A stretch of DNA of 32,000 nucleotides from Rhodobacter capsulatus SB 1003 (GTDB taxonomy: Bacteria > Pseudomonadota > Alphaproteobacteria > Rhodobacterales > Rhodobacteraceae): NCBI RefSeq assembly GCF_000021865.1, contig NC_014034.1, positions 2,160,001 to 2,192,000 on the forward strand, given 5' to 3'. Shown piece after piece: positions 1 to 10,483 of the stretch. A program made the translations under genes and the position numbers. Under the pieces are notes generated by a model. That model had not been told where the DNA came from. It was given only the letters and a program-made list of their open reading frames with translations, and searched no databases. Each line of letters begins with the position of its first letter. The stretch's first letter is position 1.

Positions 1-2267
1 TCGTGGCGCATTATGCATCGAAAGAGCATTTCTCGACACTTTATTCCGAGATCGTCAAAGCGGTGAAGGATGCGCCCGAAGTCTCCTCCGGGCTGCCGCG
101 GCTCAAGCTATTGCTGAAGCGGGCAGATGGTGTGCGCGGTTATGTGCATGGCCTGAGAGACACACGCAAACATGCATTTGCCACCAAGCTGCCCCCGCCC
201 CCCGCCCCTCGAGAACTTGACGATCCCGCGACGAAGGCGCGTTACATCGCCCTGTTGCGGCTTTACGACGGGCCATTCCGCGCCTACGCTTCTGGCATTA
301 CCGGAACGGCGCTTGCCGGACCTGCCGCGCGCGCCAAGGAAGCGGCAACCGCGCTGGCGCAAAGCGTGAACGTCACGAAGGCGTATTCCGACGTAATGGA
401 AGGGCGCACGAGCCGGTTGCGCCCCCCGAACGATGGCGAAACGCTGCGCGAATATCTCAGCGCCTTGACCGGCGAAACCGCGACCGAGTTCCGGGTGCAG
501 ATCGGGTACGAGTCCGACTCGGAAAACGCCCGCAAACAGGCGGAATTCATCGAGAACTATCGCCGCGACATGCTTGCCTTCATGTTCGAGGATTACATCA
601 GGGCCAAGGGCTTTGACTGGATATTGAAGATCGAGCCGGGCGCGACGGCGATGACCCGCGCGCCCGTCCTGCCCGAGCCGATCGATACGCGGGGCCAATA
701 CGAGCATTGGCAAGCGGCGCTCTATCTGGTGATGCATTTCGTTCCGGCCAGCGATGTCTCGAACCTGCTGCACCAGTTGCGCAAATGGGAGGCGCTTCAG
801 GGCAAATATGAACTGGTCCAGGACGGTGACGCCACGGATCAGGCGGACGCGAGGCGCGAGGCGCTTGATCTCGTCAAGCGCTTCCGCGATGTGCTGGTGT
901 TGTTCCTCAAGACCGGCGAGGCCCGGTTCGAGGGCCGCGCAGCGCCTTTCGATCTGAAGCCGTTTCGGGCGCTCTTTGCCAACCCGGCCACCTTTGACCG
1001 GCTCTTCATGGCCACACCCACAACCGCGCGCCCTGCCGAAGATGACCCCGAGGGGGACGGTGCGTCCGAGCCGGAACTGCGTGTCGCGCGCACCTTGCGC
1101 GGTTTGCGCCAGATCGCGCGCTACAACCATATGGCGGTTCTGAGCGATCTTTTCGCAAAGCACAAAGTGCGGGACGAAGAGGTGGCCCGCTTGGCCGAGA
1201 TCGAAGACGAGACGCAGGAAAAGTCACAGATCGTGGCAGCCCAGGAACTGCGCACCGACCTGCACGACAAGGTGATGAAGTGTCACCCAAAAACGATTTC
1301 CCCCGAGGAGCGGCAAAGTTACGCTGCGGCGATCAAGACCATCGAGGAACACCGGTTTCTGGTCGGACGGGTCTATCTGGGTGATCATCTGCGCCTGCAC
1401 CGGTTGATGATGGACGTGATCGGACGCCTGATCGACTATGCCGGGGCTTATGAACGTGACACCGGAACTTTCCTCATAAACGCGAGCAAGCAGTTGGGAG
1501 CAGGCGCCGATTGGGCTGTCACCATCGCAGGGGCAGCCAATACCGACGCGCGCACCCAAACCCGCAAAGACCTTGCGCATTTCAATGTGCTTGACCGCGC
1601 GGATGGCACGCCAGACCTGACCGCTCTGGTCAACCGGGCGCGCGAGATGATGGCCTATGACCGCAAGCGCAAGAATGCGGTGCCGCGCTCGATCCTCGAT
1701 ATGCTGGCACGACTTGGGCTGACGCTGAAATGGCAGATGAAAGATCACCTTCTGCAAGACGCGACGATCACTCAGGCCGCCATCAAGCACCTCGACAAGG
1801 TCAGGCTGACAGTTGGCGGGCCGGCGGCGGTGACAGAGGCCCGTTTCAGCCAAGACTACCTCCAGATGGTGGCGGCCGTCTTCAATGGCAGCGTCCAGAA
1901 TCCAAAGCCACGCCGCCGGGATGACGGGGACGCATGGCACAAGCCCCCCAAACCCGCGACCGCGCAAAGCCAGCCAGATCAAAAACCGCCCAACAAGGCA
2001 CCCTCTGCGGGCTCCCGTCTTCCGCCCCCGCAGGTGGGGGAAGTCTACGAGGGCGTGGTGGTTAAGGTGATCGACACCGGATCTTTGGGGTTTCTTGCTG
2101 TCGAGGGCGTTGCGGGGAACATTGGCCTGCACATTTCCAGGCTGAGAAGGATCCGCGAAGATGCCATCATCGTCGGGCGGCGCTATCGGTTCCGGGTGGA
2201 AATCTATGTCCCGCCGAAAAGTAACACGTCGAAGCTGAATGCCGCCGATCTGGTGCGGATCGACTGA
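1..2267 (+). CDS. cas13a: Cas13a (C2c2)-like type VI-A CRISPR effector, 5' end cut by the window edge; C-terminal S1/OB-like extension
   Basis: The frame is open from nt 1; the leading M in the ORF track is only the first GTG. Two HEPN R-x4-H motifs are present: LRDTRKHAF (153-179; R 156-158, H 171-173) and TRKDLAHFNVL (1560-1592; R 1563-1565, H 1578-1580). YAGAYERD and AYDRKRKNAV blocks flank the second motif, as I recall for Cas13a HEPN2. A same-strand CRISPR array starts 170 nt downstream. Codons are visibly more A/T-ending than in the core genes. Confidence 0.8.
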   Translation, partial: VAHYASKEHFSTLYSEIVKAVKDAPEVSSGLPRLKLLLKRADGVRGYVHGLRDTRKHAFATKLPPPPAPRELDDPATKARYIALLRLYDGPFRAYASGITGTALAGPAARAKEAATALAQSVNVTKAYSDVMEGRTSRLRPPNDGETLREYLSALTGETATEFRVQIGYESDSENARKQAEFIENYRRDMLAFMFEDYIRAKGFDWILKIEPGATAMTRAPVLPEPIDTRGQYEHWQAALYLVMHFVPASDVSNLLHQLRKWEALQGKYELVQDGDATDQADARREALDLVKRFRDVLVLFLKTGEARFEGRAAPFDLKPFRALFANPATFDRLFMATPTTARPAEDDPEGDGASEPELRVARTLRGLRQIARYNHMAVLSDLFAKHKVRDEEVARLAEIEDETQEKSQIVAAQELRTDLHDKVMKCHPKTISPEERQSYAAAIKTIEEHRFLVGRVYLGDHLRLHRLMMDVIGRLIDYAGAYERDTGTFLINASKQLGAGADWAVTIAGAANTDARTQTRKDLAHFNVLDRADGTPDLTALVNRAREMMAYDRKRKNAVPRSILDMLARLGLTLKWQMKDHLLQDATITQAAIKHLDKVRLTVGGPAAVTEARFSQDYLQMVAAVFNGSVQNPKPRRRDDGDAWHKPPKPATAQSQPDQKPPNKAPSAGSRLPPPQVGEVYEGVVVKVIDTGSLGFLAVEGVAGNIGLHISRLRRIREDAIIVGRRYRFRVEIYVPPKSNTSKLNAADLVRID

Positions 2268-2436
2268 AAATGAGGGTTCAGGTTCAGAACATGTCCAGCG
2301 CCATGAAATATATGGATATAATTCGAATTTTGCGTCCGGATACCGTGCGGATGGGCGAGAAAATTCAGGCATTTGTCGTCACCCTCCGAAACCTCGCCGC
2401 GGATCTCGATTGATTTCAGGGCGCTCCAGTGGTAAA
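2268..2436 (+). promoter_or_regulatory. putative CRISPR leader
   Basis: This is the most AT-rich stretch of the window and lies between the cas13a stop and the first repeat. It contains a TATAAT hexamer at 2317-2322, but I found no convincing -35. The degenerate repeat is at the far end of the array, which agrees with a leader on this side. Confidence 0.4.
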
Positions 2437-2610
2437 GGAGCACATCACCGCCAAAATGACGGCGGACTGAACCTAAGACGGGGACAGTCGACCAGAAACC
2501 CCAAGGAGCACATCACCGCCAAAATGACGGCGGACTGAACCTGCCGGGTCTCATTGAGGATAAGGGCAATCGTGGAGCACATCACCGCCAACATGACGGC
2601 TGGGGATGGC
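2437..2610 (+). CRISPR. CRISPR array with three 37-nt repeats and two spacers (31 and 32 nt); terminal repeat degenerate
   Basis: R1 (2437-2473) and R2 (2505-2541) are both GGAGCACATCACCGCCAAAATGACGGCGGACTGAACC. R3 (2574-2610) is GGAGCACATCACCGCCAACATGACGGCTGGGGATGGC; its first 27 nt carry 1 mismatch and its last 10 nt have diverged. The repeat has an internal CCGCC/GGCGG stem and an ...ACTGAACC 3' end, as in Cas13a 5'-handle repeats. Spacer 1 (2474-2504) is TAAGACGGGGACAGTCGACCAGAAACCCCAA. Spacer 2 (2542-2573) is TGCCGGGTCTCATTGAGGATAAGGGCAATCGT. Confidence 0.85.
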
Positions 2611-2723
2611 GACTTGCGGCAATCAAGACCTCCGCTCCGATGCCATCGGTCGCAGCCCCTGCCTTTGCTTGTCAGCCCGCAAGCCCCGCCTTAGGCTGAG
2701 GCCGAGCATTTCAAGGAGGCCGC

Positions 2724-4274
2724 ATGCTGTCGCCGCAGATTGCATCCCACCCGGTAGCCGAGCACAGCCTGTGCGTTTTTTACGAACTCGACGGAATTGA
2801 TCCTGCTGGCTGGACCGGCCCCCGCTTCGGCAATCTGACCCGAAACCCTGGACAAGGTATCCCCGCCGATCAGAAAGCCGCGCTGCAGGGGCGTTATGCC
2901 GAAGATGCGCTTTGGGAAGCCGACGAAACCCTTTCGGCGGGTGACGATTTTCATGCGCATCTGCAGGAATTGCTGTCGGGCGCGCGCCCCGACTTGGTGA
3001 GGTTCCATCGCCTGACCGAGAGGGGCCACCGCTTTCTCTCGACGGCCTGCCTTTATGAGAAGACAACACCGCCCGCAGACCGGATCGCCAAGCGGCTGCG
3101 ACTGAGCCTGACGTCAGCCGCCAAAGAACGCATTGCTGCGGCGGGTGTCGTGCCGGGCGAACTGGGCCTTGAGGTCGAAAGCCTGTCGCTTGCCCTTTTC
3201 ATGACCGCGCAGGGGCTGGCTTTGTGCCGCTTCGTCGTCGACCGCGAGGATGGCGCCCCACTTTCCGCGGTCGAACTGCTCGAGGCCACGGTTGCGCTTT
3301 CCCGCCTGAACGAGGTGCGATGGATCGACAAGAAGGCCAAAACCCCGATCGAAGCCCCAGCGTTTTCAATGGCGGCCTTGATCGGGCAGATGGTGTTTGG
3401 CAGCCGGTCACAAGCCGAGGTGTCGCGTCGGCTGTCGTCGCATGCGATGGTGCGCTTCGACGCCATCTTGCCGATAACGGACCGCGACCGGTACGCGCTG
3501 ATGCTGGCGCGGCATTACACGACGGATTACCAGCTTTCGCCCGATATCGGGCGCGTCGAATGGGTCAGGGATTTCGAGACAGTTCGACACGCCATTGCGC
3601 TGGAGGGGGCCGCAACGGTGATCGGCCCGACCGAAGGGGCGCCGACCCTGACGGAATTTCTGAGAAATTTCCGGACATCGACCTTCGATCGCCATTATCT
3701 GCCGATCGCGATCCTGGCGCTGCACGAGCGTGCCTTCCTCGTTGCCCGAACCGCGGCCTCAATCATGTCCGCGGCGGAGATGCTGGATGCGCAGAAATCC
3801 CTGCGTCGGTTGGCCGAGTTGCGCGAAGCGGCGCTGGTGCTCCGTCTGTGCTACCGGTTCTCGGAACAGAGCCATATTTCGATGCACAATGCGGTCAACC
3901 TTGCCTGGCGCAAGGTGTTGCGCCTCGACGAGATGCTGGCCGAACTCGACGACAGCATCCGCGATATCGCCGATCATCTGGAGCGGATCCACCGGCGTGC
4001 GCAGGAGCGGAAATTTGCCGGCGTGGCGATCATGGGCGGCGCCATCATCGCCGGCTTCTCGACCTTCTCGATCGTGAAGGATCTGTATGATCTGTTCAAG
4101 GCATCGCAGACTTACGGGTGGATCGGGGTGTGCGTCGGGGGCATCGCGCTGATCGGGGTGGCGGCCTTTGCCCATCGGAAAAGCGCCGTGTTTGGCGCCC
4201 TCGATCAGGACTGCTCCAAGAATTACACCGTCCATGCGATGTTGGAAAAGATGACGCGCCGCAGCAAGGACTGA
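2724..4274 (+). CDS. hypothetical CRISPR-adjacent membrane protein (516 aa) with a C-terminal two-TM hairpin, CorA-like topology only
   Basis: ATG at 2724 is preceded by AAGGAGG (2713-2719). A long, helix-rich soluble part is followed by TM1 FAGVAIMGGAIIAGFSTFSIV (4014-4076), TM2 WIGVCVGGIALIGVAAFAH (4119-4175) and a basic tail. There is no GMN motif and I recognise no family. Confidence 0.75.
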   Translation: MLSPQIASHPVAEHSLCVFYELDGIDPAGWTGPRFGNLTRNPGQGIPADQKAALQGRYAEDALWEADETLSAGDDFHAHLQELLSGARPDLVRFHRLTERGHRFLSTACLYEKTTPPADRIAKRLRLSLTSAAKERIAAAGVVPGELGLEVESLSLALFMTAQGLALCRFVVDREDGAPLSAVELLEATVALSRLNEVRWIDKKAKTPIEAPAFSMAALIGQMVFGSRSQAEVSRRLSSHAMVRFDAILPITDRDRYALMLARHYTTDYQLSPDIGRVEWVRDFETVRHAIALEGAATVIGPTEGAPTLTEFLRNFRTSTFDRHYLPIAILALHERAFLVARTAASIMSAAEMLDAQKSLRRLAELREAALVLRLCYRFSEQSHISMHNAVNLAWRKVLRLDEMLAELDDSIRDIADHLERIHRRAQERKFAGVAIMGGAIIAGFSTFSIVKDLYDLFKASQTYGWIGVCVGGIALIGVAAFAHRKSAVFGALDQDCSKNYTVHAMLEKMTRRSKD

Positions 4275-4486: not shown

Positions 4487-5695
4487 TCACCCCGCGCTTG
4501 GCCTCAGCTGCACCACCTGCACCGACTCGCCGGTCACATAGTCCGCCCATCGCTGCATGAGCGCGGCGCGCTGGTCGAGGTAGTCGGATCTGGCGTAGGC
4601 GCGGCGCACCTTGTTGCCGATGACGTGGCCAAGCGCCGCCTCTGCCGCCAGATCGTGCGAGCCGTCCAGCGTATCCTGCACCCAGGTTCGGAATGTCGTG
4701 CGGAAACCGTGCGGCCTGCCCGCCTCGCCGATCTTGTTCACCGCCTTCAGCAGCGCATTCGGGCTGATCGGTTCCCCGCGATCGCCCGGGAACAGAAGGC
4801 CGGTCTCGGGATCGTTCGAGAGCCGTCGCGCCTCGGCCACGATGGCAAGCGCCTGGGACGAAAGCGGGACGCGGAAATCCGTGGCCGCTTTCAGCCGCCC
4901 CTTCACGCGCTCTTTCGGCACGATCCACAGGCTGCCGTCGATTTCGTTGAAACGCGCGCCCCGGGCCGCATCCCCCCGGACCGCGGTCAGCAGCAACAGG
5001 CGAAGGCACATCAGCCCGGAGGTGTCCCCGGCCAGCCGCGTGAACAGCACCGGGGCATCCTGCCAGCGCGTCGCGGCGATATGCTCGGGCTCGATGTGCA
5101 GATCCCCCAGCAGCTCGCGCGCCGCCGCCAGCGTGTCGGGGTCGACGGCATAACCGATGCGCTTGCCCTTCTTGAAGCAGAGGTTGAGCCGCGAATAGGC
5201 CTTTTCGGCGACCGTCGGCTTCATGCGCCAGATCGGCTGCAGCACGCGCACGAAATCGGCCGTCCGGAGCGATGACGCCGGGCGCGCGCCGATCTTCGGC
5301 AGCACATGGACGCGCAGCGGTGACATCCAGCGCCCCGCCTCCCCCTCGCCCTTGAGCGTGTGCTTGATCGCGCCGAAGACGGTGTCCACAAGATCCGACA
5401 GCGACGGGTCCTCACGCGTTGCCGCGGCCTCCCTCTCGCGCGCCCGCTCGGAGATCGGGTCCCGGCCGGAGGCGAGCACCGCGGCCCAGCGATCCCGCTC
5501 GCGGCGCGCCTGGGCGAGGGTCACGGCATCGAGAGAGCCCAGCCCCATGTCGCGGCGCCGCCCCGCGATCGTGTAACGGTAAAGCCATTTTCCGCCATCC
5601 TCGGTGCGGTCGAGGTATAACCCGGCGCCGTCGCCATATCGCCCCGGTGCCGCGGCCCGGATCTTGACCGCCGTCAGCTTGTCCCTTGCCCCCAT
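4487..5695 (-). CDS. int: tyrosine recombinase/integrase, P4-type
   Basis: The N-terminal arm-type domain reads KLTAVKIRAAAPGRYGDGAGLYLDRTEDGGKWLYRY. Catalytic signatures are LLTAVRGDAARGARF, HGFRTTFRTW and LGHVIGNKVRRAYARSDY. The ATG at 5695 is preferred; the open frame extends to a TTG at 5764. Confidence 0.85.
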   Translation of the reverse strand: MGARDKLTAVKIRAAAPGRYGDGAGLYLDRTEDGGKWLYRYTIAGRRRDMGLGSLDAVTLAQARRERDRWAAVLASGRDPISERAREREAAATREDPSLSDLVDTVFGAIKHTLKGEGEAGRWMSPLRVHVLPKIGARPASSLRTADFVRVLQPIWRMKPTVAEKAYSRLNLCFKKGKRIGYAVDPDTLAAARELLGDLHIEPEHIAATRWQDAPVLFTRLAGDTSGLMCLRLLLLTAVRGDAARGARFNEIDGSLWIVPKERVKGRLKAATDFRVPLSSQALAIVAEARRLSNDPETGLLFPGDRGEPISPNALLKAVNKIGEAGRPHGFRTTFRTWVQDTLDGSHDLAAEAALGHVIGNKVRRAYARSDYLDQRAALMQRWADYVTGESVQVVQLRPSAG

Positions 5696-5951
5696 ATCAG
5701 CCCCACACTTGGCCCCACATTGTCGATGCGGTGCTGGGGTATCACCCGCAACACCTTGAGACAATTACATCTTTGCGGCGTTGAGATTTCCCGGGGCGCA
5801 GAGTCAACCTGAGACGGCATGCAACACGGCACTGGTGCAGACCACCCGCACCATCTGACCTTTCTCTGCCTGCCCGCGCTGCCGTCTCGGGGCGTCTGTC
5901 TGGGCGAATCTTTTCGATCTTTCTGCCGCGCCGGGACCGAAAACGGCCCGG

Positions 5952-5987: not shown

Positions 5988-6078
5988 CACCTTGCCAGCA
6001 AGGTCGCCAGCCCCTAGAAGGACGGCTGAAATTTGCCTGAGCGCGTCTTTTCGGCGCGCCCGAACCAGAGGAAACCCC

Positions 6079-7413
6079 ATGCAGGTCACCCAGACCCTCA
6101 ACGAAGGCCTCAAGCGCGGCTACACGATCACGCTGACCGGCGCCGAACTGGATGCGAAAGTCACCGAAAAGCTGATCGAGGTGCAGCCCGAAGTCGAGAT
6201 CAAGGGCTTCCGCAAGGGCAAGGTGCCGATGGCGATGCTGCGCAAGAACTTCGGCGACCGCGTTCTGGGCGATGTCCTGAACGAATCCGTCGATGGCGCG
6301 ATCAAGGACTTGCTCGATCAATCGGGCGACCGTCCGGCGCTGCAGCCGAAGGTCGAGATGGAAAACGGCAAGGACTGGAAGCCGGGCACCGACGCGATCT
6401 TCACCGTCTCCTATGAAGCCCTGCCGCCGATCCCGGCCTTTGACCGCGCCACCGTCACGCTGGAGCGTCTGGTGGTGAAGGCCGACGAAGCTTCGGTGAC
6501 CGAGGCGCTGGAAAACCTGGCGAAATCGGCGCAGGCCTTCGAGGACCGCAAGAAAGGCACCAAGGCCAAGGACGGCGATCAGGTCGTGATCGACTTCGAA
6601 GGCTTCCTCGGCGACGAACCCTTCGAGGGCGGCAAGGGCGAGGAATATCCGCTCGTCCTCGGCTCGAACTCGTTCATCCCGGGCTTTGAAGATCAGCTCG
6701 TCGGCGCGAAAGCGGGCGAAGATGTCGAAGTGAAAGTGACCTTCCCGGCCGAATACGGCGCCGCGCATCTGGCGGGCAAGGAAGCCACCTTCAAATGCCA
6801 CGTCCATGCGGTGAAGGCCCCGAAACCGGCCGAGATCGACGACGAGCTGGCGAAGAAATTCGGCGCCGCCGATCTGGAAGCGCTGAAGGGCCAGGTCGCC
6901 TCGCGTCTGGAAGCGGAATACAAGGGCGCCTCGCGGGCGATCCTGAAGCGTGCCCTGCTCGACATTCTGGATGCGCAAGTGAAATTCGACCTGCCGCCGT
7001 CGCTGGTCGAGGCCGAAGCCGGTCAGATCGCGCACCAGCTCTGGCACGAGGAAAACCCGGATCATCACGGCCACGACCATGGCGCGGTGGAGCCGACCGA
7101 AGAGCACAAGACCCTGGCCGAGCGCCGCGTGCGTCTGGGCCTGCTGCTCGCCGAGCTGGGCCGCAACGAGAAGATCGAAGTGACCGACGCCGAGATGACG
7201 CAAGCCGTTCTCGCCGCGGCGCGTCAATACCCGGGCCACGAGCGCGAGTTCTTCGAATTCGTCAAGGGCAACGCGCAGATGCAACAGCAGATCCGCGCGC
7301 CGCTCTACGAAGAAAAGGTGATCGATTTCATCGTCGCGGGCGCTGCCGTGACCGAGAAAGAGGTCAGCAAGGAAGAGCTGCAGAAAGCCATCGAAGCGCT
7401 GGACGAGCTCTGA
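6079..7413 (+). CDS. tig: trigger factor
   Basis: [19 protein letters not shown]... shows full-length similarity to trigger factor, including the FKBP-type core ([20 protein letters not shown]). The ATG at 6079 follows AGAGGAAA. The track ORF start at 5992 is an upstream extension. Confidence 0.95.
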
Positions 7414-9213: not shown

Positions 9214-9342
9214 GTAGGCTCCTGTTTCACAAGGCGGCTTCATAGGGGGCCAGAACTTCCGCAGCCCACCACGAGAGGCGTCGCCGGTTCATGTCATCGC
9301 GGAAGTGAGGGGCTGATAGCCGCTCCCCCCCCGCGATGCAAG
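9214..9342 (-). promoter_or_regulatory. rpsF promoter and structured 5' leader
   Basis: On the minus strand, CTTGCA (9342-9337), an 18-nt spacer and TATCAG (9318-9313) make a possible -35/-10 pair. The leader contains the 8-bp inverted repeat ACTTCCGC (9306-9299) / GCGGAAGT (9262-9255), which encloses 36 nt. Confidence 0.35.
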
Positions 9343-9372
9343 CGAAATCCCCGCCGCTGGCCCCGGTTGCCA

Positions 9373-9582
9373 TGACCGAGGCCATCGCCGAGGTCACGCG
9401 ACACATCTGCCCCGTTCCGGTCGGCGGCCCGGAGGCCGCCGGCCAGCGCCCGCCCCGCCCCCGGCGGGCGCTTTCGCGCCGCCCGGGGCAGGCGCCGGCC
9501 TCTGTCTCGTGTGGGGACACGGTCTTGCAACTGCGTTTCGCAGCGGGCGGGGAAAGGCAATGCCTTTCCCTCTCCGCCCGAA
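9373..9582 (+). repeat. ~215-nt GC-rich structured intergenic repeat, copy 1
   Basis: It aligns along its full length with 28349-28564 and 30449-30664. The shared head is TGACCGAGGCCATCGCCGAGGTCA. The shared hairpins are AGCGCCCGCC..GGCGGGCGCT and the nested CGGGCGG-GGAAAGG..CCTTTCC-CCGCCCG. Confidence 0.85.
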
Positions 9583-9592
9583 GCAAAGGTCG

Positions 9593-10483
9593 TTATCTCC
9601 GCCCCGCCAGCACGATGCCGCCAAGGATCAGCCCGAAACCGGCGGCATGGTAAAGATGAAGCGGTTCATGCAGGAAGGCCGCCGAGAGGATCGCGCCATA
9701 GACCGGCAGCAGGTGGATGAACTGCCCCGCCCGCGCCGGGCCCGCCATCTCCACCGCCTTGGTATAGAATAGATAGGCCAGAACCGAGGGCACGATGCCG
9801 ATATAGACCAGCGCCCCGATCGAGGCGGGCGTCCAGACCGGCACCCGGCCCGAGCTGATTTCCCAGACCAGAAACGGCGCCAGGATCGGCAGCGCCAGCG
9901 CGATCTGCACCGCCAGAAGGCCGATCCGGTTCACCTCGGCCGGGAAGGTCTTCAGCCCCATCGTGTAAAGCGCCCAGGCCACCATCGCGGCGAAGATGAT
10001 CAGATCGCCGCGCGCGAAATCGAGCGCCGCCGCCCGTTCCCATGAGCCCTGCAAGATCACGACCGCCACCCCAAGCGTCGAGACGATCAGCCCGAGGATC
10101 GCCCAAAGCCCGAGCCTTTGCCCCCAGAAGAGCGCCCCCAGAGCCATGATCAGCAGCGGAATGGTGGAATTCAAAAGCATCCCGTTCGTCGCGGTCGAGG
10201 TCTGCAGCCCCCAATAGACGAGCGAGTTGAAGGCCGCGACGCCGGGCAGCGTCAGAAGCAGGATGCGCCCGAAATAGCGGCGGTAAAGCGGCCAGTCCCG
10301 GCGCAGCCAGGGCCAGGCAAAGGGCAAAAGCGCGATCAGCGCGATCGACCAGCGGCCAAAGGACAGCGCCACGGGCGGCCACTCGCCGCGCGAGGCCCGC
10401 GCGACGATGAAGTTTCCAGCCCAGAACAGGGGCGGCAGCGCCAGCACCGCCCAAAGTTTCCAGCCACCCTTCGTCTCGCCCAT
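9593..10483 (-). CDS. EamA/DMT-family transporter (about 10 TM)
   Basis: MGETKGGWKLWAVLALPPLFWAGNFIVARA... is hydrophobic throughout with a duplicated EamA-like layout. The ATG at 10483 follows AGAGGAGG. Confidence 0.85.
   Translation of the reverse strand: MGETKGGWKLWAVLALPPLFWAGNFIVARASRGEWPPVALSFGRWSIALIALLPFAWPWLRRDWPLYRRYFGRILLLTLPGVAAFNSLVYWGLQTSTATNGMLLNSTIPLLIMALGALFWGQRLGLWAILGLIVSTLGVAVVILQGSWERAAALDFARGDLIIFAAMVAWALYTMGLKTFPAEVNRIGLLAVQIALALPILAPFLVWEISSGRVPVWTPASIGALVYIGIVPSVLAYLFYTKAVEMAGPARAGQFIHLLPVYGAILSAAFLHEPLHLYHAAGFGLILGGIVLAGRR

What the first reader, a model, noticed from the sequence alone, without database searches (positions are those of the whole stretch)
1900..2267. 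S1/OB-fold-like RNA-binding domain fused to the Cas13a C-terminus through a Pro-rich linker
Cas13a homologues, as I remember them, end near ...YLQMVAAVFNG (~1890). Here the ORF continues in frame through a Pro/Lys/Gln-rich linker (KPRRRDDGDAWHKPPKPATAQSQPDQKPPNKAPSAGSRLPPP). It then reads VGEVYEGVVVKVIDTGSLGFLAVEGVAGNIGLHISRLRRIREDAIIVGRRYRFRVEIY. That segment fits the S1-domain signature (G-x-V-x-G-x-V...G-x-F-V...G-L-x-H-I-S) of RpsA, PNPase and RNase E/R. An extra ssRNA-binding OB fold on an RNA-guided RNase could recruit substrate RNA or ribosome/degradosome partners, or tune collateral cleavage. I do not know this fusion to be described. One caveat applies: this contig shows homopolymer indels elsewhere, so an artefactual fusion must be excluded.
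Basis: partly seen in the sequence, partly recalled or inferred. Interest (0 to 1): 0.65.

Follow-up and report, generated by a model that had tools for sequence, protein, structure and literature searches.

The report
Known cold-shock-like tail on Cas13a
The extra C-terminal tail on this RNA-cutting CRISPR enzyme is real and is a small RNA-binding-type barrel on a flexible linker, but it was published in 2022 for Rhodobacter capsulatus Cas13a, and deleting it had no measurable effect in the assays tried there.

Summary
ORF 3-2267 (+) is the C-terminal 754 aa of Cas13a. It reads in frame past the family end (...MVAAVFNG, nt 1889), through a 47-aa Pro-rich linker (1890-2030), into a 78-aa beta-rich module (2031-2264).

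The tail is 100% identical to residues 1161-1285 of PDB 7OS0, Rhodobacter capsulatus Cas13a, so it is not an assembly artefact.

The fusion is already described. Kick et al. [quoted passage not shown]

My tests place the module in the S1/CSD-like OB group. It passes neither Pfam model. Its only orthologue, in a 46%-identical metagenomic Cas13a, just passes Pfam CSD.

Three points go beyond the paper:
- The domain is not unique to R. capsulatus.
- 30 of 37 related Cas13a proteins carry tails of at least 20 aa at this position, mostly basic; four hold a different conserved module (TKKGGW).
- One public assembly has a C6-to-C7 slip in the linker that cuts the domain off.

The function is still unknown. 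Novelty: already known. Interest: low.

The parts
3..1889 (+). Cas13a core, residues 532-1160 of the 1285-aa R. capsulatus protein. The gene starts upstream of the window. The HEPN2 R-x4-H motif (R1052/H1057) is at nt 1563-1580.
   Evidence: NCBIfam NF038188, 429 bits. The PADLOC Cas13a profile is matched to its end at window aa 630. 100% identical to P0002/P0011. Catalytic residues are named in PMC8776769 and read directly.
1890..2030 (+). Flexible linker of 47 aa (Cas13a residues 1161-1207), rich in Pro, Lys and Gln. Its sequence is not conserved, but the orthologue P0003 has a linker of similar length and character.
   Evidence: Sequence. Alignment A1. No electron density in 7OS0, according to PMC8776769.
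1944..1949 (+). C6 homopolymer inside the linker. A C7 allele in one public assembly shifts the frame and separates the barrel from Cas13a.
   Evidence: Alignment of the window with L042. Gene calls on L042: a 1226-aa partial Cas13a plus the 69-aa ORF P0001. Run coordinates.
2031..2264 (+). S1/CSD-like OB-fold module (Cas13a residues 1208-1285), the published 'CTD'. Predicted strands are beta1 to beta4, with a conserved C-terminal ...A..VRID that is probably beta5. The stop codon is 2265-2267.
   Evidence: PDB profile search: CspB 3.8e-7. hhalign against CSD and S1 sets: 94-95%. AF2 strands at residues 8-19, 23-30, 33-40 and 55-60 of the 82-aa segment, pLDDT 58. Foldseek returns OB folds only. 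HHpred in PMC8776769.
2079..2096 (+). Degenerate RNP1-like motif GSLGFL. The canonical CSD motif is K-G-F-G-F-I, and the orthologue P0003 has KGFGFL.
   Evidence: Alignments.
2121..2135 (+). Degenerate RNP2-like motif IGLHI. The canonical motif is V-F-V-H-F, and P0003 has IFLHI. The His is kept and the flanking aromatic residues are lost.
   Evidence: Alignments.
2437..2611 (+). Short CRISPR array downstream of cas13a: two intact repeats, one degenerate terminal repeat and two spacers.
   Evidence: the repeat finder family D1 with spacing 68/69. This matches 'second CRISPR array ... only two spacers (5-6)' in PMC11089165, Fig. 1 legend.

Best explanation
Shown: nt 1890-2264 encode the already-described C-terminal domain (CTD) of Rhodobacter capsulatus Cas13a. 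It is a ~78-aa OB-fold beta-barrel of the S1/cold-shock-domain group, tethered to HEPN2 by a ~47-aa disordered Pro-rich linker. It lies outside the Cas13a family core and is translated in frame. It is dispensable for crRNA maturation, and for target and collateral RNA cleavage, in heterologous assays.

Inferred: it acts as an accessory, low-specificity single-stranded-RNA-binding appendage. Swinging on the long linker, it would raise the local concentration of RNA around the effector, aiding target search or substrate capture, or keeping the enzyme on transcripts. It would not take part in catalysis. In R. capsulatus most canonical aromatic RNA-contact residues of cold-shock domains are replaced, and an Arg-rich face (SRLRRIRED...GRRYRFR) probably supplies binding instead. 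The same position in most related alphaproteobacterial-type Cas13a proteins carries a strongly basic tail or another small module. This suggests a lineage-wide, interchangeable RNA-affinity appendage whose benefit shows only in the native host or under limiting conditions.
For: Identity: 125/125 identical to 7OS0 residues 1161-1285.

Published description, HHpred assignment and deltaCTD results: PMC8776769.

Fold class:
- The profile of the two CTDs hits about 20 cold-shock proteins in PDB, best 3.8e-7.
- hhalign gives 94% against a CSD set and 95.5% against an S1 set.
- The orthologue passes Pfam CSD.
- The AF2 models show four strands in OB order.
- Foldseek returns only OB folds, with CspA, Unr CSDs and S1 domains on top for the orthologue model.

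Retention: the CTD is 39% identical between two Cas13a proteins that are 46% identical overall. It is in frame in all R. capsulatus full-length copies and in five metagenome samples.

Appendage pattern: 30 of 37 relatives have at least 20 aa beyond the MxAxLF end of HEPN2, 24 of 37 have net charge of +5 or more, and the median length is 45 aa. The Rc tail has net charge +8.
Against: - No RNA binding by the CTD has been measured, and the isolated domain could not be expressed (PMC8776769).
- deltaCTD had no phenotype in any published assay.
- Only 2 of 7 surface aromatic or His positions of CspA are kept in Rc (F25 and H38 of the 82-aa segment), against 4 of 7 in P0003 (alignments; the CspA residue list is from my own knowledge).
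- Neither Pfam S1 nor Pfam CSD detects the Rc sequence.
- Both structure models are low-confidence (pLDDT 58 and 54), and the fifth strand is not predicted.
- One assembly carries a frameshift that removes the domain, so loss may be tolerated.
Confidence: 0.6

Rival explanations
1. Vestigial domain. A cold-shock domain was captured by an ancestor of the Rc/P0003 Cas13a lineage. In R. capsulatus it is decaying and contributes nothing today.
For: deltaCTD equals wild type in all published assays. The RNP1/RNP2 aromatic residues are lost in Rc but largely kept in P0003. The Rc sequence fails both Pfam models. A C7 frameshift allele removes it in one assembly.
Against: The reading frame is intact and identical in all other R. 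capsulatus copies (36+1 contigs). Identity to P0003 is 39% across the whole barrel, including the C-terminal ...VRID. The barrel's codon-position GC matches the gene body. Basic appendages at this site are widespread in the clade, which argues for selection.
Confidence: 0.2
2. Protein-interaction or regulatory module. The barrel docks onto a host partner (ribosome, degradosome, RNA polymerase) or back onto Cas13a, localising or gating the nuclease instead of binding substrate RNA directly.
For: Loss of canonical RNA-contact aromatic residues. A long flexible tether. In R. capsulatus, Cas13a-dependent RNA 5' ends cluster in ribosomal-protein and rpoABC mRNAs (PMC11089165), which could reflect localisation. 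E. coli assays would miss a host-specific partner.
Against: There is no direct evidence. S1/CSD-like OB folds are overwhelmingly nucleic-acid binders (established knowledge). Relatives carry simple Arg/Lys tails at the same position, which fit electrostatic RNA binding better than a specific protein contact. No density for a docked CTD was seen in the crystal.
Confidence: 0.15
3. The module is a bona fide S1 domain (the RpsA/PNPase/RNase E family), and not a cold-shock domain.
For: With the Rc sequence alone, the only PDB and NCBIfam hits are S1 domains: DHX8 0.018, PNPase 0.72 and 0.061. Exhaustive phmmer finds multi-S1 proteins that match PQVGEVYEG...GLHISRL. hhalign to an S1 set gives 95.5%.
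Against: Pfam S1 gives no hit at E<=10. The S1-like match stops after beta3. My S1 set was drawn from the best hits to this very sequence, so it is biased. The orthologue passes Pfam CSD, not S1. The two-sequence profile ranks CSPs 5 orders of magnitude above S1. Published HHpred says CSD. Neither AF2 model predicts a full-length helix (4 or more residues) between beta3 and beta4, the position of the usual S1 helix; the Rc model shows only two 3-residue turns there (both models are low confidence).
Confidence: 0.25
4. Artefactual fusion. A sequencing or assembly indel in a homopolymer joined an independent small ORF to cas13a.
For: Four homopolymer runs of 5 or more lie in 1944-2040. One assembly (L042) differs by one C and splits the gene.
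Against: The in-frame 1285-aa protein is identical in PDB 7OS0, which was expressed, purified and crystallised as a 145-kDa protein. It is found on 37 contigs, including complete chromosomes. The orthologue P0003/P0021 keeps the domain in frame in many independent assemblies.
Confidence: 0.01

Closest known systems
RcCas13a C-terminal domain (CTD), Kick et al. 2022, Commun Biol 5:71 (PDB 7OS0)
   Same: It is the same protein and the same residues (1161-1285, 100% identical). The inference is the same, a cold-shock-like beta-barrel, and the linker and domain are disordered in the crystal.
   Different: Nothing differs in the object itself. The paper calls the CTD 'unique to RcCas13a'. Here a second Cas13a lineage (P0003/P0021, 46% identical, next to RT-Cas1 and Cas2) carries the orthologous domain.
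Bacterial cold-shock proteins / CSD (Pfam PF00313; CspA, CspB)
   Same: Similar length and the same strand order. The G-F-L and L-H-I cores align with RNP1 and RNP2. The profile of the two CTDs hits CspB at 3.8e-7 and hhalign gives 94%. The orthologue passes the Pfam threshold.
   Different: The Rc sequence itself fails the Pfam model. It keeps only 2 of 7 canonical surface aromatic or His residues. It is fused to a 1160-aa nuclease instead of standing alone. It has a longer beta4-beta5 loop (VPPKSNTSKLN).
S1 RNA-binding domain (Pfam PF00575; PNPase, RpsA, RNase E, DHX8)
   Same: The N-terminal PQVGEVYEGxVxKV...G..G.LHIS signature. There are weak direct hits to the DHX8 and PNPase S1 domains. 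Both belong to the same OB superfamily.
   Different: No Pfam S1 hit. Similarity is confined to beta1-beta3. The C-terminal half (RYRFRVEI...AADLVRID) resembles CSD beta4/beta5, not the S1 VKV..ID...R..LS pattern.
CSD-like OB folds fused to other defence effectors (CoCoNuT CnuB/McrB, often alongside HEPN nucleases; Bell et al. 2024, PMC11090510), and a 'CSD domain-containing protein Cmr6' (PDB 9ARW)
   Same: A cold-shock-type OB fold is appended to a component of an RNA-directed or RNA-suspected immune system, presumably for RNA binding. 9ARW appears as a weak hit (E=0.23).
   Different: The host proteins and the position differ (N-terminal there, C-terminal here). No homology beyond the generic CSD was shown. 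I did not examine those systems here.
Arg/Lys-rich C-terminal tails and the 'TKKGGW' module of other alphaproteobacterial-type (Toro et al. 2019 'clade 1') Cas13a proteins
   Same: They sit at the same position, directly after the MxAxLF end of HEPN2, have net positive charge and are preceded by low-complexity linkers.
   Different: Most are unstructured basic tails. The TKKGGW module shows no detectable relation to the CTD (hhalign <1%) and has no Pfam, PDB or plasmid hit.

Membership tests
Cas13a (type VI-A effector) | Match to the curated family profile above its cutoff | tested here: met
   NCBIfam NF038188 scores 429 bits against a cutoff of 150. PADLOC Cas13a E=8e-119. Identical to 7OS0.
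Cas13a (type VI-A effector) | HEPN R-x4-6-H catalytic motif, and an adjacent CRISPR array | tested here: met
   The HEPN2 RKDLAH motif at nt 1563-1580 equals R1052/H1057 of PMC8776769. HEPN1 lies upstream of the window. The array is at 2437-2611.
S1 domain (Pfam PF00575) | Score at or above the Pfam gathering threshold (22 bits) | tested here: not met
   No Pfam family was reported at E<=10 for the 754-, 125- or 78-aa queries. HMMER filters drop most hits above about E 0.1.
S1 domain (Pfam PF00575) | Five-stranded OB barrel with a helix between beta3 and beta4 | tested here: inconclusive
   The AF2 models have pLDDT 58 and 54. They show four strands, at most two 3-residue helical turns after beta3 (Rc model only; none in the P0003 model), and no predicted beta5.
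Cold-shock domain (Pfam PF00313) | Score at or above the Pfam gathering threshold (27 bits) | tested here: not met
   The Rc sequence gives no hit. The orthologous domain of P0003 scores 27.3 bits, E=3.4e-6, just above threshold.
Cold-shock domain (Pfam PF00313) | RNP1 (K-G-F-G-F-I) and RNP2 (V-F-V-H-F) nucleic-acid-binding motifs | tested here: not met
   Rc has GSLGFL and IGLHI. P0003 has KGFGFL and IFLHI. The motif definitions are from established knowledge of CspA/CspB.
S1/CSD-like OB-fold group (SCOP 'cold shock DNA-binding domain-like'; Pfam OB clan) | Significant profile-level similarity to members, and OB strand order | tested here: met
   The profile search against PDB finds about 20 CSPs at 3.8e-7 to 0.04, plus S1 domains. 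hhalign gives 94% and 95.5%. Foldseek of both models returns only OB folds, though at weak E-values. Published HHpred agrees.
S1/CSD-like OB-fold group | Binding of single-stranded nucleic acid | not testable with these tools
   No binding data exist. The isolated CTD could not be expressed (PMC8776769).

The most novel reading that the evidence does not exclude
The C-terminus of alphaproteobacterial-type Cas13a is a modular slot for RNA-affinity appendages: a plain Arg/Lys tail, an undescribed 'TKKGGW' beta-module, or a CSD/S1-like OB fold. These would be functionally interchangeable and would matter only in the native cell, for example by holding the effector on nascent or ribosome-associated transcripts and so shaping which host RNAs are cut during growth arrest. 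The published null result for deltaCTD would then reflect over-expression in E. coli and not real dispensability.
Probability: 0.2. Interest if true: 0.5.

Novelty: already known. Interest (0 to 1): 0.2.

Why it matters
As filed, the finding adds nothing new. The domain, its likely fold and its dispensability in standard assays were published in 2022.

Two things are of modest value. First, the family label should read 'S1/CSD-like OB fold, closest to cold-shock domains', not 'S1'. Second, the domain is not a one-off. An orthologue with near-canonical cold-shock motifs exists in a second Cas13a lineage, and most relatives carry some basic appendage at the same site.

This turns an isolated oddity into a testable question: do accessory RNA-binding tails tune target search or substrate choice of Cas13a in vivo? 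The answer could also bear on engineering Cas13a sensitivity for diagnostics.

Tried and rejected
- **Pfam S1/CSD scan of the tail:** no hit. The local Pfam copy also returned nothing for full-length Cas13a, although precomputed annotations list PF28192 and PF28350, so that copy seems to lack those models.
- **Word-indexed homologue searches with the tail and with the two-CTD profile:** they found only the 69-aa fragment P0001. They even missed P0002 and P0003, so they say little about rarity.
- **Deepening the alignment for structure prediction:** not possible, because only homologous-protein hits may be submitted. Both AF2 runs used two sequences and gave pLDDT 58 and 54. The Foldseek E-values are all 3.6e-3 or weaker and serve only as coarse support for an OB fold.
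- **Separating S1 from CSD with my own HMMs and hhalign:** Rc alone scores S1 22 bits against CSD 2 bits, and P0003 alone scores CSD 28 against S1 6. Profile-profile comparison is a tie.
- **Relating the TKKGGW module to the CTD, CSD or S1:** no relation (hhalign <1%), and no Pfam, PDB or plasmid match.
- **Testing whether the downstream CorA-like ORF travels with Cas13a:** it does not. It is absent from all 41 related loci other than the same-species contig L042.
- **The metagenome scan:** it recovered only further copies of P0003. The GTDB scan found no third CSD-type CTD.
- **dN/dS:** not attempted. R. capsulatus copies are nearly identical, and Rc against P0003 is saturated.
Full report
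**1. What is in the sequence**

- ORF 3..2267 on the + strand (754 aa, open at the window start) is the C-terminal part of a Cas13a. NCBIfam NF038188 scores 429 bits against a cutoff of 150. The PADLOC Cas13a profile gives E=8e-119 and is matched up to its last position at window residue 630.
- The frame continues past the family's end...YLQMVAAVFNG (nt 1889). A 47-aa linker with 12 prolines follows (1890-2030), then a 78-aa segment QVGEVYEG...LVRID (2031-2264) and a TGA stop.
- The barrel's codon-position GC is the same as in the gene body (GC3 0.74 v 0.75; linker 0.68). The non-coding stretch after the stop lacks this pattern.
- A short CRISPR array with two spacers follows at 2437-2611.

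**2. Identity**

The 125-aa tail is identical, residue for residue, to positions 1161-1285 of PDB 7OS0 chain A, 'Cas13a'. The full 1285-aa protein is in the protein collection on 36 contigs (P0002), and the window's exact allele (P0011) is on a 3,738,958-nt contig. [quoted passage not shown] 1 of Kretz et al. 2024 (PMC11089165).

**3. It is already described**

Kick et al. 2022 (Commun Biol 5:71, PMC8776769) report the following:
- HHpred showed similarity (~15% identity) to cold-shock-domain proteins with a beta-barrel fold.
- The isolated CTD could not be expressed.
- RcCas13a-deltaCTD behaves like wild type in pre-crRNA processing in vitro, and in lux cis-cleavage, GFP trans-cleavage and growth arrest in E. 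coli.

The suggested role in tuning collateral cleavage has a negative, though heterologous, test on record.

**4. Artefact question**

The fusion is real. The full-length 145-kDa protein was purified and crystallised, many independent assemblies agree, and an orthologue keeps the domain in frame (see section 5).
- A C6 run lies at 1944-1949 in the linker.
- One Logan assembly (SRR7554415_58, L042) is identical over 1860-2300 except for C7 there.
- Gene callers on that contig split the gene into a truncated Cas13a and a 69-aa ORF, P0001, that holds most of the barrel.
- I cannot tell whether this is a true natural deltaCTD allele or an assembly error.

**5. Fold and family**

Results with the Rc sequence alone:
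- Pfam reports nothing, neither S1 nor CSD, even at E<=10.
- The weak hits are all S1-type: DHX8 S1 E=0.018 and PNPase S1 E=0.72 in PDB, and the PNPase S1 region E=0.061 in NCBIfam.
- In an exhaustive phmmer over 1.8 billion proteins, three multi-S1 proteins appear at E=1e-6 to 7e-4. Their scores are summed over 3-4 repeats, and they match only query residues ~2-47, PQVGEVYEG...GLHISRL.

The homologue search with the whole ORF found a 1298-aa Cas13a, P0003, that is 46% identical. It comes from JGI metagenomes and recurs in four more samples. Its C-terminus aligns with the Rc CTD at 39% identity. That domain passes Pfam CSD, PF00313, at 27.3 bits against a cutoff of 27, E=3.4e-6. It keeps KGFGFL (RNP1) and IFLHI (RNP2-like), where Rc has GSLGFL and IGLHI.

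Comparisons using both CTDs:
- A profile of the two CTDs hits about 20 cold-shock proteins in PDB (CspB 3.8e-7), with PNPase S1 at 0.07.
- Profile-profile comparison gives 94% to a small CSD set and 95.5% to an S1 set. The S1 set was drawn from the best hits to this query, so it is biased.
- AF2 with the two-sequence alignment is low-confidence (pLDDT 58 and 54). It shows beta1-beta2-beta3-(turn)-beta4 in OB order.
- Foldseek returns only OB folds. For the P0003 model the top hits are CspA, Unr CSDs and S1 domains, all at weak E-values.

Conclusion: this is an S1/CSD-like OB fold, best labelled cold-shock-like, and it is divergent in R. capsulatus. 'S1 domain' as a family assignment fails the one formal test available.

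**6. Wider context (beyond the paper)**

A scan of one genome per GTDB species found 36 related Cas13a loci at 23-32% identity, mostly alphaproteobacterial MAGs. This is the group that Toro et al. 2019 call clade 1 (PMC6753606). I read each gene through to its stop:
- 30 of the 37 proteins compared (34 of these loci plus Rc, P0003, P0004 and P0005) extend at least 20 aa beyond the conserved MxAxLF end of HEPN2. The median is 45 aa.
- 24 of 37 tails have net charge of +5 or more.
- Most are plain Arg/Lys-rich tails.
- Four (L005, L010, L011, L013) carry a different conserved ~75-aa module...GQRVxAVLVEEKTKKGGWKA...VANPxNASFEWP..., followed by a basic end. It has no Pfam, PDB or plasmid match and no detectable relation to the CTD.
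- Only Rc and P0003 have the CSD-type barrel.
- The P0003 locus has RT-Cas1 and Cas2 upstream, on the opposite strand.

**7. Mechanism**

Shown:
- A tethered OB module lies outside the catalytic core.
- It is dispensable in E. coli and in vitro.
- It has been retained between two lineages.
- Its position coincides with basic appendages across the clade.

Inferred:
- It is a low-specificity ssRNA-binding appendage that increases RNA capture or keeps the effector on transcripts.
- In Rc, binding would rest more on the Arg-rich beta3-beta4 region (SRLRRIRED...GRRYRFR) than on the canonical aromatic patch. By the alignment, only 2 of 7 CspA surface aromatic or His positions are kept, against 4 of 7 in P0003. 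The CspA residue list is from my own knowledge.

Rivals:
- A decaying vestige, supported by the null deltaCTD phenotype, the motif loss and the C7 allele.
- A protein-interaction or localisation module.
- A true S1 domain.
- An artefact, which is refuted.

**8. Verdict**

Novelty is 'already known' and interest is low. The residual interest lies in the clade-wide C-terminal appendage pattern and the unexplained TKKGGW module.

Noticed in passing
L005 ~9355-9699, L010 ~9319-9720, L011 ~9328-9729, L013 ~9379-9825 (C-termini of related Cas13a genes): Four alphaproteobacterial Cas13a relatives end in a conserved ~75-aa module, GQRVxAVLVEEKTKKGGWKA...IVGxIxNSxxVPPDA...ELxVRVANPxNASFEWPSPEVEARL, followed by an Arg-rich end. 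It has no Pfam, PDB or plasmid hit and no detectable relation to the CSD-type CTD. It may be an undescribed small domain.
   Followed up: partly
36 GTDB loci L002-L037, the region just after the HEPN2 'MxAxLF' motif: Most clade relatives carry 20-70-aa tails that are strongly basic. 24 of 37 have net charge of +5 or more. Several share a short D-x-I-D/E-W motif before the basic run, for example in L002, L008, L014, L017, L020, L023, L025 and L026.
   Followed up: partly
window 1944-1949; L042 ~3544-3550: The C6 tract in the linker is C7 in one Logan assembly (SRR7554415). This frameshifts Cas13a so that it ends near window 2065 and leaves the barrel as a separate 69-aa ORF. It is either a natural deltaCTD variant or an assembly error.
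   Followed up: partly
L001 1686-3941 (- strand), upstream of the P0003 cas13a gene: The only other Cas13a with the CSD-type CTD sits next to an RT-Cas1 fusion and Cas2. That is the type VI-A/RT arrangement discussed by Toro et al. 2019.
   Followed up: no
window 2724-4274 (+): A 516-aa ORF lies directly after the CRISPR array. It has no Pfam hit and a weak PADLOC 'CorA-like' match (E=4.8e-6, aa 311-443). Its C-terminal stretches GVAIMGGAIIAGFSTFSIV and GWIGVCVGGIALIGVAAFA look like transmembrane segments. It is not found beside any of the other Cas13a loci.
   Followed up: partly
window 4487-5764 (-): A tyrosine integrase (Arm-DNA-binding, central and catalytic domains) lies ~2 kb beyond the array, next to trigger factor-like ORF 5992-7413. 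ARAGORN found no tRNA gene in the window. The cas13a locus may sit at the edge of an integrated element.
   Followed up: no
window 2268-2436: The stretch between the cas13a stop and the first repeat is locally AT-richer: 2268-2723 is 57% GC against 65.5% for the window. It is probably the CRISPR leader/promoter. A 47-54-aa ORF is called there in some assemblies and is likely spurious.
   Followed up: no
tool behaviour: The local Pfam-A scan returns no family for full-length RcCas13a, although the precomputed annotations list PF28192 and PF28350. The word-indexed protein search with the CTD also failed to return P0002 and P0003. Negative results from these two tools should be read cautiously.
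   Followed up: no
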